Source of the DNA: a virus
Taxonomy: Duplodnaviria; Caudoviricetes
IMG/VR virus record: IMGVR_UViG_3300043036_000147
Span: 1 to 45,394 of that record
Direction: 5' to 3' (one strand)
Length of the DNA: 45,394 nucleotides
Shown here piece by piece: positions 17,903 through 41,699 of the stretch. Each line of letters starts with the position of its first letter. The first letter of the stretch is position 1. The notes beneath the pieces were generated by a model, which was not told the origin of the DNA, did not search any database, and saw nothing but the letters and a program-made list of their open reading frames with translations. The translations under genes and the position numbers were made by a program.

Positions 17903-17952
17903 GAGGTGCCGGGTAACCCCGATAAACATCATCACCAATCCACACTATCCAC

Positions 17953-18390
17953 ATGCAAATCTGCGACATCTTACTTCGCATCTCGCCATCAGAATCCAGC
18001 AACACGACCATCATTCGCCAAAATGTGACACCGGCAGAGATCGCGGTCCTGCGTCACATGAAGGGTCCAAATTGCGTCAGCTTTAACGGCAACCTTCGTG
18101 AGATTCAGCGCGGCTCAGCCACCGAAGGTCAGCGCCTGCAATCGGTTCACGGCAGCGCATTCACAGAGTTGTTCCCTGGCATGTCACCAACCTTGCCGCT
18201 CTTCTTTGAGCAGGTTGAGTTCGACATCAGCCACATCCCCAACGGCGATCCCTATGTTCCAGCTCCAGACGAAGCGCCGATCTTGGAGGAGGCCATCGTT
18301 GACACCATCTCTCCAGACTTGGCGGTCGCTGAACCCGTCAAGCACAAGGCATCCAAGCGCAACGCCAAGCAGCGCGAAACCTTCGCATAA
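17953..18390 (+). CDS. Virion-module hypothetical protein
   Basis: 145-aa ORF with VTPAEIAVLRHMKG motif, between capsid and adaptor genes. Confidence 0.65.
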   Translation: MQICDILLRISPSESSNTTIIRQNVTPAEIAVLRHMKGPNCVSFNGNLREIQRGSATEGQRLQSVHGSAFTELFPGMSPTLPLFFEQVEFDISHIPNGDPYVPAPDEAPILEEAIVDTISPDLAVAEPVKHKASKRNAKQRETFA

Positions 18391-18396
18391 GCCACC

Positions 18397-19086
18397 ATGA
18401 GAACGAAAACCCTTGACGAAATGGTAGTAATGCTTCGTGCTGAGTGCGGAGAAAGCACGAACGCCAGCATGGGAATCAACTCCGTTGAGGGTCTTCAACA
18501 GGTCATTCGTCGCACCCAGGAAACTCTTTACGATGAGTTCGATTGGCCACAGTTGGTCATTGACACTGACGAGTCTTTGCTGCCGTCTCAAAACACCTAC
18601 ACCATGAACGATGCCATCGACCCGATGCGCATCTTCAAGGTGTGGGTGAAGGACAGCGGCACCTGGGTCGAGATGGAATACGGCATCACGCCGGTTGACT
18701 ACAATGGCTCGGACCCAGAGGAGGGCGAGTCGGAAACTGTTCCAACTAAGTGGCAGTTTCGCGACGAGAACCAATTCGAGGTGTGGCCTGTTCCAGGCAT
18801 TGCTGGCACCATGCGGTTCCGCCACATTCGCACGTTGAAACCACTGCTTGCTGGCACGGATCGCAGCACGCTTGACGCCAACCTGATCGTGTTGTTTTGC
18901 GCTGCTGAACGTCTTGCAACCAAGAAGGATCAGAGCGCACCAATCAAGCTGCAAGCTGCTCAGCGCAAACTGGCATCCATTCGCAACCTGAGCACCCAGA
19001 AGAAGGTGTTTAGCACATACCAACCAATACCCACAGGAGAAAAACTTCCAGAAAATTGGGAGGTCAGGGTTCCACGCACAGCATAG
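18397..19086 (+). CDS. Head-tail adaptor (tail tubular protein A-like)
   Basis: Size, position, and QETLYDEFDWP / FEVWPVP motifs. Confidence 0.7.
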   Translation: MRTKTLDEMVVMLRAECGESTNASMGINSVEGLQQVIRRTQETLYDEFDWPQLVIDTDESLLPSQNTYTMNDAIDPMRIFKVWVKDSGTWVEMEYGITPVDYNGSDPEEGESETVPTKWQFRDENQFEVWPVPGIAGTMRFRHIRTLKPLLAGTDRSTLDANLIVLFCAAERLATKKDQSAPIKLQAAQRKLASIRNLSTQKKVFSTYQPIPTGEKLPENWEVRVPRTA

Positions 19087-34453: not shown

Positions 34454-34471
34454 TCCACACCACACCAACAC

Positions 34472-34903
34472 ATGCTACTCGAATCAAAAACCACTCACAA
34501 GAAAGCCCCTGCTGCTATCCCAGACAGCGGCTCACGCACCAACTTCGACACTGGCGCAGTGCGTGATTCATCTATCGGCAAGGGACTGCCAAGTCGTATC
34601 CCGCCGATTGCCATCATGAAGATGGCGAAGCGCTTTGAGGATGGTGCCAATAAGTATCCCGATGGACAGAGCGGTCCAAACTGGATGATCGGCATTCCGC
34701 TGTCTCGCTTCTACGACGCCATTGTGCGCCACTCTTTGCAGGCCGCAGAAGGCAACACGGACGAGGACCACATTGGCGCTGTCCTGTGGAACGCTGCGGC
34801 GTGGGCCTGGACCGAAGGCGAGATCGTGGCCGGTCGCCTGCCAATCGAATTGAACGACCTGCCATTCCACCCAAGTGGCACCGTGGCCCGTCATCGCAAG
34901 TAA
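34472..34903 (+). CDS. dATP/dGTP diphosphohydrolase domain protein (DUF5664-like)
   Basis: FDTGAVRD...GKG...GANKY...NWMIGIP...RH...EDHIGAVLWN. Confidence 0.82.
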   Translation: MLLESKTTHKKAPAAIPDSGSRTNFDTGAVRDSSIGKGLPSRIPPIAIMKMAKRFEDGANKYPDGQSGPNWMIGIPLSRFYDAIVRHSLQAAEGNTDEDHIGAVLWNAAAWAWTEGEIVAGRLPIELNDLPFHPSGTVARHRK

Positions 34904-37396: not shown

Positions 37397-37642
37397 ATGC
37401 TTCCAGAAAACCGCGTCTCCAATCTCATCTACTATCTCGGCGGTCGCGCCGGGTTTCACCGCGTTGCCTCCACCCTTGGCTCCGACATCTCTCTGTCAAC
37501 CATTGGATCATGGATCACTCGCAACAGTCTGCCAGCCAAATACATGCCGCTATGCAATCAGGTTGCGGTGGCAACCAAACGACCTCCAATCAACTGGTTG
37601 AAGTTTTTTGAACAAAAGGACTTGCCAACACAGGAAGCATAG
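37397..37642 (+). CDS. Cro-like HTH regulator
   Basis: LIYYLGG...ISLSTIGSWITRNSLPAKY pattern; first gene of the replication operon. Confidence 0.65.
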   Translation: MLPENRVSNLIYYLGGRAGFHRVASTLGSDISLSTIGSWITRNSLPAKYMPLCNQVAVATKRPPINWLKFFEQKDLPTQEA

Positions 37643-38638: not shown

Positions 38639-39406
38639 ATGAACTCACTCTTCAATCCATCCTCCGGCGCTGACAGCACCAAAGAACTCCTCCCTGACGG
38701 CACCTTGGCATTTGCCGTTGTCAGCATGTCCGACAAAGGACTCGCCAACAGTCAATCCACGGGTGGCGAATACGCCAACCTCGTCATCACTCTTGATGGC
38801 CCAGCACCCATCGGCAAGCGCAAGGTCTTCCACATGCTCGCCAACCCACTCGACACTGACAACAGTGAAGCGTGGCGCAAGATGGCGATCAGCGCAATCA
38901 CTCGCATCCTGGAAGCCTGCGGCACCTTCGATTACGAGTCCCCAGATTCCTACAAAATCTTCGACTTTGAAGGTGTCAGCTTCAGCCACATGCTGGAGCA
39001 CATCGAAGGCCAAAGCATTGCTGTCGAAGTCGGCATTCAAAAAGGGCAGGATGGCCACTCCGACAAGAACGTCATCAAGACGTTCCTCACTCCCTCCCAG
39101 GAGAAGAGCAGTAAGCGTGGTCGTCAGCTTTGGGACCTTCTCATGACCGGCGCAACCACGTCGAAGGTCGAGAAGAAGGTGGTGCCCGCTGCCGCCGCAC
39201 CTGCCGTCACGCCGAAGCCAGCCTCTGGCCCAGCCGCAATGGCGAAAGCCTCAGTTGGAGTCGGTGGCGGCATCGGTGGTGCCAAGCCTTCCGGTGGCAT
39301 TGGTGCCCCCAAGTGGGCCAATCGCCCTGCCACGCCAGTGGCCGCCAAGCCTGAGGCTGCGGCTGCTGAAGCGGTCCAGGAGCAGGTGATGCAGGGCGGC
39401 GAATAG
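38639..39406 (+). CDS. ssDNA-binding protein (DUF669-like)
   Basis: OB-fold-like N-terminus (LLPDGT...KRKVF...DKNVIK) and low-complexity tail with PKWA; follows the Sak4-like gene. Confidence 0.7.
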   Translation: MNSLFNPSSGADSTKELLPDGTLAFAVVSMSDKGLANSQSTGGEYANLVITLDGPAPIGKRKVFHMLANPLDTDNSEAWRKMAISAITRILEACGTFDYESPDSYKIFDFEGVSFSHMLEHIEGQSIAVEVGIQKGQDGHSDKNVIKTFLTPSQEKSSKRGRQLWDLLMTGATTSKVEKKVVPAAAAPAVTPKPASGPAAMAKASVGVGGGIGGAKPSGGIGAPKWANRPATPVAAKPEAAAAEAVQEQVMQGGE

Positions 39407-39413
39407 CCTTCAG

Positions 39414-39554
39414 CCCCTGGCAATGCGTCAATTCCGATTACCACACCAATTCGGGTTTGCCACAGCGTTGCCAGGGGATTAAATTTCAACGTATCCAGTG
39501 CGTAGGGAAATGTGTTGGTGTGGAAAAGTGTGATCCCTGCGCACTGGATTTTTT
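39414..39554 (+). ncRNA. Candidate structured sRNA: two long hairpins with complementary (kissing) loops
   Basis: Stem 1 39414-39426/39465-39477 (13 bp); stem 2 39493-39508/39534-39549 (16 bp); loop CCACACCAA (39441-39449) pairs with TTGGTGTGG (39515-39523). Confidence 0.65.
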
Positions 39555-39626
39555 GTTGCGGTTCGTATAGAGGAAGTATTCCAGACCGATTTACTGGAGG
39601 CGCGGGTTCGATTCCTGCACTGCAAC
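39555..39626 (+). tRNA. tRNA-like element with a non-canonical anticodon arm (nominal anticodon GAU)
   Basis: Acceptor TTGCGGT/ACTGCAA, D arm GTAT-AGAGGAA-GTAT, anticodon stem CCAG/CTGG with A:A at 31:39 and loop CCGATTT, T arm GCGGG-TTCGATT-CCTGC; no encoded CCA. Confidence 0.7.
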
Positions 39627-39641
39627 AACCTTCCCAACAAC

Positions 39642-39685
39642 ACCCCCGACGCCTCTGACTCAAGCGCACCACGGGGGTTTCTTTT
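39642..39685 (+). terminator. Hairpin with U-rich tail after the tRNA-like element
   Basis: ACCCCCG/CGGGGGT outer stem followed by TTCTTTT. Confidence 0.45.
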
Positions 39686-39705
39686 GCCCGCACGCCAACA
39701 CCATT

Positions 39706-41370
39706 ATGCAACTACGTCCACGTCAAGACATCTTCGTCCGCGCCAATCTCAAGGCGCTTAAGCAGCACAAAAACACCCTCGGCCAAGCCACCGTTGGCTT
39801 CGGCAAAACCATCTGCATCGGTGCCGGTATCGGCATGATTGGTGGCTACCAGCGCAGCCTCACTCTCCAGCACCGCGAGGAGCTGCTGGACCAGAACCTC
39901 ACCAAATTCAAGCGGGTCAACCCTGGCTACCTCACCGCAGCGATGAGCGCGGATGTCAAACGGTGGACACCAGAGGGCCACAACTTCGCGATGGTTCAGA
40001 CCCTGGTGAAGAACCTGGATCGCATGACGCCGGTGGACATCCTGACCATTGACGAGGGTCACCACGCACCGGCCTCGACCTACCGCAAGATCATCGACCG
40101 AGCCCGTGAGCTGAACCCAGACGTCCACCTGTGGCTGCTCACCGCAACGCCTGAGCGTGCTGACGGCAAGGGCTTGCGCGAGGTCGTGGACAATGTGGCC
40201 GACGTCGTGACGCTCGGCGAGATGGTGCAAGCCGGGTTTCTGGTGCGACCACGCACGGTGGTCATCGACCTTGGCATCAACGCGTCATCCATGCGCAAGA
40301 CGACGGCGGACTTCGACATGGACTATGCAGCGCAACTCCTGGACTTGGAGCCAATCACCGAGAAGGTCTTCGAGGAGTGGAAGAAGCAGGCCGGTGATCG
40401 TCGCACGGTGGGCTTTGCCACGAACGTCGAGCACTCCATGCACATGACCGACTACTTCGTGAAGCGTGGCATCACCGCAGAGCACATTGACGGCGAAACA
40501 CCCAAGGATGTTCGGCGCAAAATCCTACAGCGCCTGGATCGTGGCATCACCCAGGTGGTGTGGAACTGCAATGTTCTCACCGAGGGCTTCGACAGCCCGA
40601 GTGTTTCCGCCATCATCCTGCATCGACCATTCATGCACTTGAGCACGATGGTGCAGATGGCCGGTCGAGGGCTACGCACGATCAGTGAGCCGGAGAACTA
40701 CCCAGGCATCATCAAGGACGACTGCATCATCTTCGACTTCGGCGCATCCATCATGGAGCACCGCACGTTGGAGAGCGAATGCAACATTGAAGGGCGCAAG
40801 AAAGGCGGTGAAGCGCCCACCAAGGAGTGCGAGGAATGCGGTGCCGTGATACCTGCAAGCTGCCGCGTGTGCCCGATCTGTCAGCACGCCTTCGAGTTTG
40901 ACGCAAAGCTGAAGACGGCGACCGGAGAGTTCATGATGACCGAGGTGGAACTCATGCAGATGTCGCCTTTTCACTGGGAGACGCTGTGGTCATCGCCCGA
41001 CCCAAACGTCGTGATGGCCAACGCTCTCACCGCATGGTGCTGCCTAATCGAATATGGTGGCATCTGGTTCGCGTATGGTGGCATCCAGGGCAAGAGGGAC
41101 ATCAAGCTGTGCGGCACCAGCCACGACAAAATTCTGGCGATGGTCAAGGCGGACGATTTCCTGCGTGAGCACGGTGACAAGAGCAACAGCCGCAAGTCGC
41201 GATCCTGGTTGACCGATGACGCCAGTGACAAGCAATACGAACTGCTAGGAGAGAAGCCTCCCATCTTTGGGCGCATGTCCAAGTATCGCGCTGCCTGCAT
41301 GATTTCCTGGAAGTGGAACGAGAGCAAAATGCAACAAAGTATTTTTGCGAACTTCAAGAATTTCCGTTGA
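39706..41370 (+). CDS. SF2 (DExH) helicase with Zn finger, RadD/UvsW-like
   Basis: LRPRQ Q-motif, TVGFGKT, DEGHH, LTATP, LTEGFD, QMAGRGLR and CxxC...CxxC. Confidence 0.92.
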   Translation: MQLRPRQDIFVRANLKALKQHKNTLGQATVGFGKTICIGAGIGMIGGYQRSLTLQHREELLDQNLTKFKRVNPGYLTAAMSADVKRWTPEGHNFAMVQTLVKNLDRMTPVDILTIDEGHHAPASTYRKIIDRARELNPDVHLWLLTATPERADGKGLREVVDNVADVVTLGEMVQAGFLVRPRTVVIDLGINASSMRKTTADFDMDYAAQLLDLEPITEKVFEEWKKQAGDRRTVGFATNVEHSMHMTDYFVKRGITAEHIDGETPKDVRRKILQRLDRGITQVVWNCNVLTEGFDSPSVSAIILHRPFMHLSTMVQMAGRGLRTISEPENYPGIIKDDCIIFDFGASIMEHRTLESECNIEGRKKGGEAPTKECEECGAVIPASCRVCPICQHAFEFDAKLKTATGEFMMTEVELMQMSPFHWETLWSSPDPNVVMANALTAWCCLIEYGGIWFAYGGIQGKRDIKLCGTSHDKILAMVKADDFLREHGDKSNSRKSRSWLTDDASDKQYELLGEKPPIFGRMSKYRAACMISWKWNESKMQQSIFANFKNFR

Positions 41371-41441
41371 CTGAATGCCTTTAAGCGGTATCACGCATCG
41401 CCCTATGGCAACCACACACACCCACACCACCACAGTCACAC

Positions 41442-41699
41442 ATGCACTCGCGCACCTCATCCAAGGAACAGCCGCCAGCAAATAGCAAGAAGTCCATCAA
41501 AGTTGCCATTGCAGAAGCCAGCAATGTCAAGATGACGGAGATCACACTTGACCAGTATCACCAACTCCTGCGCAACACCATCCGGCTGGATGCCCTGGAG
41601 CGCAACGGAGTCGAAGGATGGAGCGGTTACGATGCCGCTTTTGACAGCGTCTATGACGACGCATGTATTGAAAAACTGCCAGTGAAATTTCTCGACTGA
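41442..41699 (+). CDS. Hypothetical protein
   Basis: LDALERNGVEGWSGYD motif; CA-rich leader. Confidence 0.65.
   Translation: MHSRTSSKEQPPANSKKSIKVAIAEASNVKMTEITLDQYHQLLRNTIRLDALERNGVEGWSGYDAAFDSVYDDACIEKLPVKFLD

What the first reader, a model, noticed from the sequence alone, without database searches (positions are those of the whole stretch)
39510..39523. Hairpin-2 loop is perfectly antisense to a phage start-codon region: possible anti-leader sRNA
Seen in sequence: loop AUGUGUUGGUGUGG (39510-39523) is the exact 14-nt reverse complement of CCACACCAACACAT at 34460-34473, which is the leader plus the AT of the start codon of the dNTP diphosphohydrolase gene. Shorter matches occur in other leaders (CACACCAACAC before SSB, ACACCAACAC before the 5386-6264 gene). 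This phage uses CA-rich leaders instead of SD motifs. Inference: the RNA could repress or sponge CA-rich translation-initiation regions of phage or host mRNAs, with the hairpin-1 loop as a built-in decoy or switch. Caveat: the low complexity of CA leaders raises the chance of a match.
Basis: partly seen in the sequence, partly recalled or inferred. Interest (0 to 1): 0.75.

Follow-up and report, generated by a model that had tools for sequence, protein, structure and literature searches.

The report
Phage RNA hairpin antisense to leaders
An uncultured temperate phage carries a hairpin whose open loop is the mirror image of the C/A-rich signal in front of several of its own genes, so it is likely a small RNA that damps their translation, but no transcript or effect has been seen and the single gene first proposed as its target is absent from the relatives examined.

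Summary
The 14-nt match is real: loop 39510-39523 is the exact reverse complement of 34460-34473 (leader plus AU of the dATP/dGTP diphosphohydrolase gene), and both sides are predicted to be open. Its rarity is moderate: p 0.003-0.016 with composition-aware shuffles, about 0.09 for any 14-mer of the spacer. The one-gene reading fails co-conservation, as 0 of 8 near-complete relatives carry that gene. A broader reading fits better. Six of the loop's 13 best sites genome-wide are gene starts (cut-off chosen afterwards; 0 of 132 mono- and 3 of 149 dinucleotide shuffles match this), including the adjacent helicase leader (11 bp). The hairpin ends in U6, sits beside a hairpin with a complementary loop and precedes a degenerate tRNA. 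In non-SD relatives the same SSB-helicase slot holds other, non-homologous RNAs with GU-rich or CAU loops, some covarying with the next gene's leader. Best reading: a GcvB-like multi-target anti-leader RNA in a C4-like setting (0.45). Rivals: a cis-only pseudoknot (0.25) or a terminator with a chance loop (0.2). No close relative or RNA data could be examined.

The parts
38639..39406 (+). SSB-like gene after the Sak4/AAA_24 gene; the SSB label is inferred
   Evidence: No Pfam hit itself; 4 of 16 aligned relatives hit DUF669 weakly, best E 0.0025; follows the AAA_24/Sak4 gene
39414..39477 (+). Hairpin 1; its loop carries CCACACCAAU (39441-39450), the 9-10-nt complement of the hairpin-2 loop (candidate kissing partner or decoy)
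   Evidence: -33.3 kcal/mol, z -5.4; duplex -16.6, opening cost 0.17; 9 nt or more in 432 and 1320 of 20000 shuffles
39457..39485 (+). Weak sigma70-like promoter whose start would fall at the base of hairpin 2
   Evidence: 9 of 12 consensus matches; 3 such sites found against 1.4 +/- 1.1 expected, so weak
39493..39554 (+). Hairpin 2 (16-bp stem, 25-nt loop) plus U6 tract: candidate small RNA or terminator-like 3' end
   Evidence: -28.4 kcal/mol, z -6.4; plus strand favoured by a U-G pair (-28.4 against -24.5) and by the U tract
39510..39523 (+). GU-rich anti-leader segment of the loop; also the start of a 7-codon ORF (MCWCGKV, 39510-39533)
   Evidence: opening cost 1.5 kcal/mol in the hairpin alone, 3.0 in the whole spacer
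39555..39627 (+). Degenerate tRNA-Ile(GAU)-like cloverleaf (C33, U37, extra base in the acceptor, no CCA); possible RNase P site
   Evidence: Rfam tRNA 35.3 bits, ARAGORN
39642..39686 (+). Weak hairpin plus U tract, abiF-motif-like
   Evidence: RF03085 24.2 bits, below the gathering score of 37, E 0.036; z -0.6
39691..39701 (+). Site in the helicase leader pairing 11 bp (one U-G) with the loop; candidate cis target
   Evidence: duplex -18.3; coordinates
39706..41370 (+). DNA helicase gene
   Evidence: phrog_16, E 3e-74
34460..34473 (+). Best target: leader plus AU of the dATP/dGTP diphosphohydrolase gene (34472-34903)
   Evidence: 14 of 14; duplex -25.5, opening cost 0.02; PF18909
38615..38625 (+). 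Site in the SSB-like gene leader, 11-nt perfect complement
   Evidence: -19.7
41422..41444 (+). Site in the leader of the gp5.9-like RecBCD inhibitor gene (41442)
   Evidence: 12 of 14; -20.2; PF25708
6283..6292 (-). 10-nt site in the leader of gene 6264-5386
17937..17958 (+). Weaker site at the start of gene 17953; a similar one lies at 19065-19086 before gene 19088
   Evidence: -19.0 each

Best explanation
Hairpin 2 is likely a roughly 62-nt phage small RNA whose open GU-rich loop would pair with the CACACCAAC-type signal, and in one case the start codon, in front of several phage genes and so likely lowers their translation. It would arise as the U-tailed 3' end of the Sak4-SSB transcript, by cutting at the downstream tRNA-like element, or from a weak promoter at its base (all inferred). 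These leaders lack Shine-Dalgarno motifs, so masking the unstructured C/A enhancer would block ribosome loading, as GcvB does at ACA enhancers. The best predicted sites are the diphosphohydrolase, RecBCD-inhibitor, SSB and adjacent helicase leaders. In transcripts that also contain hairpin 1, a 9-10-bp loop-loop pair would hold the seed inactive; RNA lacking hairpin 1 would be active. Shown: the sequences, complementarity and statistics. Predicted: the folds and accessibility. Inferred: transcription, processing, pairing in the cell and the sign of the effect.
For: Perfect 14-mer covering AU, p 0.003-0.016. Loop and main target predicted open. Six of the 13 best non-self sites lie in start windows that make up 1.6% of both strands, against a mean of 0.53 and 0 of 132 reaching 5 for mononucleotide shuffles, and a mean of 2.4 with 3 of 149 reaching 6 for dinucleotide shuffles, all three near-copies of the real loop. 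Mean of the five best leader duplexes matched by 1 of 300 leader shuffles. U6 tract and plus-strand U-G pairs. Loops after the SSB gene in relatives are more GU-rich than other intergenic loops (82 against 228 loops, 0.52 against 0.42, p 0.0015). A different RNA in the same slot keeps CAU in 11 of 13 distinct loop arms, with CAC and UAU in the other two. Structured spacers of 132-324 nt occur in 7 of 7 new close clusters, while 44 of 47 distant clusters have spacers of 26 nt or less. GcvB precedent (PMC3879156, passages).
Against: No RNA evidence. No close relative could be read, so the loop's own conservation is untested; pattern scans gave only unrelated hits (30 loci; 25 loci). The top-13 cut-off was chosen after seeing the list, and none of ranks 14-29 is a start. 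Mean pairing over all leaders is no better than for shuffled loops (143 of 300) and the top-five mean is matched by 28 of 300. The family anti-start score is weak (p 0.04; 3 of 26 loci individually below 0.05; this window 0.16; related clades, crude gene calls). Any 14-mer match from the spacer has p about 0.09. The best target gene is absent from 8 of 8 relatives. Where covariation is visible in relatives it points to cis pairing.
Confidence: 0.45

Rival explanations
1. Cis-only structure: the loop pairs within its own transcript, with the hairpin-1 loop or with the helicase leader about 170 nt downstream, as a pseudoknot switch for helicase translation; matches to distant leaders are by-products of a shared C/A vocabulary.
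For: 9-10 bp with hairpin 1 (-16.6) and 11 bp with the helicase leader (-18.3). In one clade of relatives a UGUGUG loop and a downstream CACACA are invariant in 10 of 10 sequences and extend together to 14, 12 and 9 bp in L066, L114 and L116. The next gene's leader ranks first or second among own-locus starts in 7 of 10 hand-picked GU-loop cases, 7 of which are from that one clade.
Against: Here the helicase leader ranks only 7 of 31 or 4 of 44. The kiss is modest statistically (432 and 1320 of 20000). It does not explain the five extra bases of the 14-mer. In L103, L099 and L001 own pairs are no better than swapped ones.
Confidence: 0.25
2. An ordinary terminator or processing hairpin at the end of the Sak4-SSB unit, with a loop that matches low-complexity leaders by chance.
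For: Stem plus U6. Long U-tailed hairpins with unrelated loops, some C/A-rich, follow the SSB gene in many relatives. p about 0.09 for any 14-mer, and the feature was picked from a whole genome.
Against: A 25-nt loop is large for a terminator (general knowledge; the scan's loop limit of 8 misses the full stem). The order of bases in the loop fits leaders better than shuffles do. The neighbouring hairpin shows the complement in its loop.
Confidence: 0.2
3. A dedicated antisense RNA for the dATP/dGTP diphosphohydrolase gene alone.
For: Strongest duplex (-25.5, next -20.2), and the only perfect site that covers the start codon.
Against: Gene absent from 8 of 8 near-complete relatives; in the 8 of 9 homologue loci with a readable ATG the leaders lack the motif. 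Other leaders pair nearly as well with the whole loop (-26.5 against -27.8).
Confidence: 0.05
4. The loop is GU-rich for another reason: it is a 7-codon leader peptide (MCWCGKV) or the relic of a small gene whose start sat in a hairpin loop, or the minus strand displays the C/A loop as a leader mimic (AgvB-like decoy or ssDNA signal).
For: ATG at 39510 and TGA at 39531 both lie inside the loop. In L003, L004 and L006 a similar-looking hairpin holds the ATG of a 52-57-aa gene. The minus-strand hairpin is also stable (-24.5).
Against: Stem similarity is not significant (scores 22-28; 417 and 113 of 3000 random windows reach 24 and 28). The small-protein profile finds nothing in the window (best E 0.9). 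U-G pairs, the U tract and the tRNA-like element all point to the plus strand.
Confidence: 0.05

Closest known systems
GcvB sRNA of enterobacteria (PMC3879156, passages read)
   Same: GU-rich single-stranded seed; C/A-rich targets in or next to initiation regions that act as translation enhancers; several targets
   Different: Phage-borne; seed shown in a hairpin loop rather than an unstructured stretch; targets lack SD motifs; no Rfam match; Hfq dependence and repression untested
C4 antisense RNA of phages P1/P7 (PMC5320573, PMC12197685, PMC8198154, passages read); P4 CI RNA recalled, not read
   Same: Temperate-phage RNA with loop-displayed antisense; complementary sites upstream and downstream in the same operon; tRNA-like RNase P candidate in the cassette
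   Different: Here the antisense loop is in a separate hairpin 5' of the tRNA-like element, there is one seed rather than a' and b', the downstream gene is a helicase rather than icd-ant, and there is no Rfam C4 match
AgvB prophage anti-sRNA (passage in PMC12197685; PMC4104026 listing only)
   Same: Hairpin 1's loop mimics the target of a GU-rich seed
   Different: The mimic lies in the same cassette as the seed; no function shown

Membership tests
GcvB | Sequence or structure match to the GcvB family | tested here: not met
   No Rfam match at gathering score or at E up to 10
GcvB | GU-rich accessible seed | tested here: met
   13 consecutive G/U bases; predicted opening cost 1.5-3.0 kcal/mol
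GcvB | Several C/A-rich targets at initiation regions | tested here: met
   Predicted only: 6 of 13 best sites
GcvB | Conserved seed | tested here: inconclusive
   No close relatives readable; no homologue among the distant ones
GcvB | Hfq-dependent translational repression | not testable with these tools
   Needs experiment; host unknown
C4/CI antisense RNA | Match to the Rfam C4 models | tested here: not met
C4/CI antisense RNA | Antisense loops carried by the three-stem RNA itself | tested here: not met
   The antisense loop is in hairpin 2, outside the cloverleaf
C4/CI antisense RNA | Complementary sites in the same operon, one at the downstream gene's initiation region | tested here: met
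   39441-39450 upstream and 39691-39701 downstream; the flanking arrangement in C4 is recalled
C4/CI antisense RNA | RNase P processing | not testable with these tools
   A tRNA-like substrate is present; no RNA ends available
functional tRNA-Ile gene | U33, purine 37, regular acceptor and T stems | tested here: not met
   Anticodon loop CCGAUUU and an extra base between T stem and acceptor
abiF RNA (RF03085) | Rfam gathering score of 37 | tested here: not met
   24.2 bits

The most novel reading that the evidence does not exclude
In phages of hosts that start translation without Shine-Dalgarno motifs, the slot between SSB and helicase is an exchangeable RNA cassette: different lineages fill it with unrelated folds that display anti-initiation loops (GU-rich anti-enhancer or CAU anti-start) or C/A-rich leader mimics. 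This would be an RNA layer that attacks the generic initiation signal itself, timing replication genes and possibly silencing host or superinfecting-phage mRNAs, with built-in decoys as the counter-move.
Probability: 0.2. Interest if true: 0.8.

Novelty: new variant of a known kind. Interest (0 to 1): 0.5.

Why it matters
How translation is regulated where Shine-Dalgarno motifs are absent is poorly understood. A phage RNA aimed at C/A-rich leaders would identify those leaders as functional signals, give a GcvB-like mechanism in a phage, and is directly testable with reporters. The uncatalogued RNAs in the same slot of relatives are ready for covariance modelling. AI notes from this scan describe anti-leader hairpins in other phages (unchecked), so the kind may be common; that lowers the surprise of this one case.

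Tried and rejected
Close relatives: eight proteins 59-95% identical to the SSB-like gene exist, but no scan returned their DNA (best locus matches 45% for SSB, 57% for Sak4), so direct covariation is untested. No expression data were obtained. Pattern scans for the loop (30 hits) and for the two-loop pair (25 hits) gave no hairpin-displayed homologue and no related phage. A cross-clade cis permutation test (p 5e-5) is rejected as evidence: it is confounded by GC content and by closing stems counted as loops. The pair count on alignment A3 was misregistered by gaps and is not used. Second-loop targets in the GU clade: nothing beyond 9-10 nt. Seven near-complete relatives show no 14-nt loop-to-start match; the best is 12 nt in L021. 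Homology of hairpin 2 to the ORF-start hairpins is not significant. Host not identified: Sak4 relatives in genomes are mostly proteobacterial at 40-53%, from a scan of only 3 of 64 parts. Rfam found nothing in relatives' spacers. Seven literature searches and term look-ups in one preprint (10.64898/2026.09.22.753630) found no description of this element; subscription papers and supplements were not seen.

Full report
Setting. The window is a whole 45,394-base virus record with integrase, terminase, major head, tail-fibre, Sak4, helicase and primase-like genes: a temperate tailed phage of unknown host. The 30 bases before 35 starts are 37% C, 33% A and 12% G (one start was misplaced by 3 nt), and SD motifs are not evident. 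The finding lies in the 299-nt spacer between an SSB-like gene (label inferred; weak DUF669 hits in 4 of 16 relatives) and the helicase gene.

Observation. The 14-mer is an exact, non-extendable reverse complement of 34460-34473 and covers the AT of the start of the PF18909 gene. The spacer holds hairpin 1 (39414-39477), hairpin 2 (39493-39549, 25-nt loop) with U6, a degenerate tRNA-Ile-like cloverleaf (39555-39627; Rfam 35.3 bits, anticodon loop CCGAUUU) and a weak abiF-like hairpin below threshold. U-G pairs, the U tract and the tRNA all indicate the plus strand.

Chance. A match of 14 nt or more arose in 10 of 3000 leader shuffles, 310 of 20000 loop shuffles and 3 of 20000 mononucleotide shuffles of the core, but in 172 of 2000 shuffles of the whole spacer against the whole genome. 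Mean pairing over all leaders equals that of shuffled loops (143 of 300), so most of the broad complementarity is composition. The order of bases adds something. Six of the 13 best non-self sites are start regions (34472, 41442, 38639, 39706, 17953, 19088). Mononucleotide shuffles average 0.53 and none of 132 reaches 5; dinucleotide shuffles average 2.4 and 3 of 149 reach 6, all near-copies of the loop. The cut-off of 13 was chosen after seeing the list, and ranks 14-29 hold no start.

Partners. Core duplex energies are -25.5 (diphosphohydrolase), -20.2 (gp5.9-like gene 41442), -19.7 (SSB), -18.3 (helicase, 11 bp with one U-G) and -16.6 kcal/mol (hairpin-1 loop). Opening the loop costs 1.5-3.0 and the best target 0.02 (the helicase site was opened 2 nt off register, 0.8-3.3). 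A weak promoter-like site would start RNA at the base of hairpin 2 (3 found, 1.4 expected).

Relatives. Proteins 59-95% identical exist but their DNA could not be obtained, so all comparisons use phages whose SSB is about 26-45% identical. None has a recognisable homologue of hairpin 2. The diphosphohydrolase gene is missing from 8 of 8 near-complete relatives, and homologues in other phages have other leaders, so the one-gene model has no comparative support. The slot itself is informative. In one search, 7 of 7 new clusters with a strong SSB-profile score have structured spacers of 132-324 nt, whereas 44 of 47 distant clusters have 26 nt or less, many with SD-like G runs. Loops after the SSB gene are more GU-rich than control intergenic loops (82 against 228; p 0.0015) and slightly more anti-start (p 0.04); only 3 of 26 loci pass alone, 5 of 31 representatives gave no loops, and the clades are related. 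One clade keeps an invariant UGUGUG loop and a CACACA in the next gene's leader (10 of 10), extended together in L066, L114 and L116 but not better than swapped pairs in L103, L099 and L001: evidence for cis pairing. A second, uncatalogued three-arm RNA has CAU in 11 of 13 distinct loop arms, CAC and UAU in the others, and 9-10-nt matches to A-rich starts of own genes in 4 of 11 loci tested, after dropping two self-matches. A third group puts the start codon of a 52-57-aa gene in the loop; the window lacks that gene. These RNAs are analogues, not homologues, and bear on the window only as context.

Mechanism. I favour a multi-target anti-leader RNA (0.45). Hairpin 2 would be freed by termination at U6, by cleavage before the tRNA-like element, or by its own promoter; its loop would mask C/A enhancers of early and accessory genes, and hairpin 1 would sequester the seed in longer transcripts. 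GcvB acts this way on ACA enhancers, and ACAA repeats are cited there as promoting initiation without SD (PMC3879156, passages). The setting recalls C4 of P1/P7, an RNase P-processed RNA whose loops occlude a ribosome-binding site (PMC5320573, PMC12197685, PMC8198154, passages). The element is a member of neither family: no Rfam match, and the antisense loop lies outside the cloverleaf. A cis-only pseudoknot (0.25) is the main rival, because that is what covariation shows in relatives. A terminator with a chance loop (0.2) remains credible, since the feature was picked from a whole genome and p is only about 0.01.

Novelty. Seven paper searches (listings and abstract starts only, except the papers named above and the preprint) found no description. 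Supplements and subscription papers were not seen. Earlier scan notes report anti-leader hairpins in other phages; they are unchecked and not counted as support. Verdict: new variant of a known kind, interest 0.5.

Noticed in passing
L021:10640-10735, L073:745-852, L052:10725-10830, L118:3228-3328, L287, L300, L286, L288: Uncatalogued three-arm RNA before the helicase gene in relatives (RUGSU junction, GAGAY-capped stem, CAU-loop stem, GUGAAWCA); 76 matches, 13 distinct arms; no Rfam hit at E up to 1 in L073. In several its ATG opens a 21-28-codon ORF ending in an ATGA overlap with the helicase start.
   Followed up: partly
L088, L094, L098, L085, L067, L105, L058, L069, L280: spacer after the SSB gene: A second uncatalogued cloverleaf-like RNA with conserved GUCGGU, UUCC and GUUGG elements behind a long hairpin; no Rfam hit.
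   Followed up: no
L001, L002, L066, L099, L101, L103, L114-L116, L174-L179: spacer after the SSB gene: Two-hairpin junction whose UGUGUG loop can form a pseudoknot with the next gene's leader; the second loop often carries UCAUGGC.
   Followed up: partly
L003, L004, L006, L067, L073, L084, L102, L110, L118: between SSB and helicase: Small 50-80-aa protein family, in three cases starting inside a hairpin loop and overlapping the helicase start; absent from the window.
   Followed up: partly
window 39555-39627: Degenerate tRNA-Ile-like element; also scores 30 bits on the tRNA-like SpF41 sRNA model, below its gathering score. Its 3' half could pair with the 5' arm of the downstream hairpin (-13.6), a possible antiterminator.
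   Followed up: partly
window 39642-39679: abiF-motif-like hairpin before the helicase leader (24.2 bits, below gathering); a similar-looking hairpin is seen by eye in L085 but did not reach E 1.
   Followed up: partly
L286, L287, L288, L300, L306, L118, L052, L088: first hairpin after SSB: Loops are C/A-rich and leader-like, as in hairpin 1 of the window; possible decoys.
   Followed up: no
window 39510-39761: The frame of the 7-codon loop ORF stays open past its single TGA through the rest of the spacer and into the helicase gene; probably chance.
   Followed up: partly
window 37260: The integrase probably starts at ATG 37260 behind a C/A-rich leader, not at 37428.
   Followed up: no
L003:5780-5856: suhB/mmgR RNA (62.7 bits) in a related phage.
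   Followed up: no
window 41442-41699: T7 gp5.9-like RecBCD inhibitor gene directly after the helicase.
   Followed up: no
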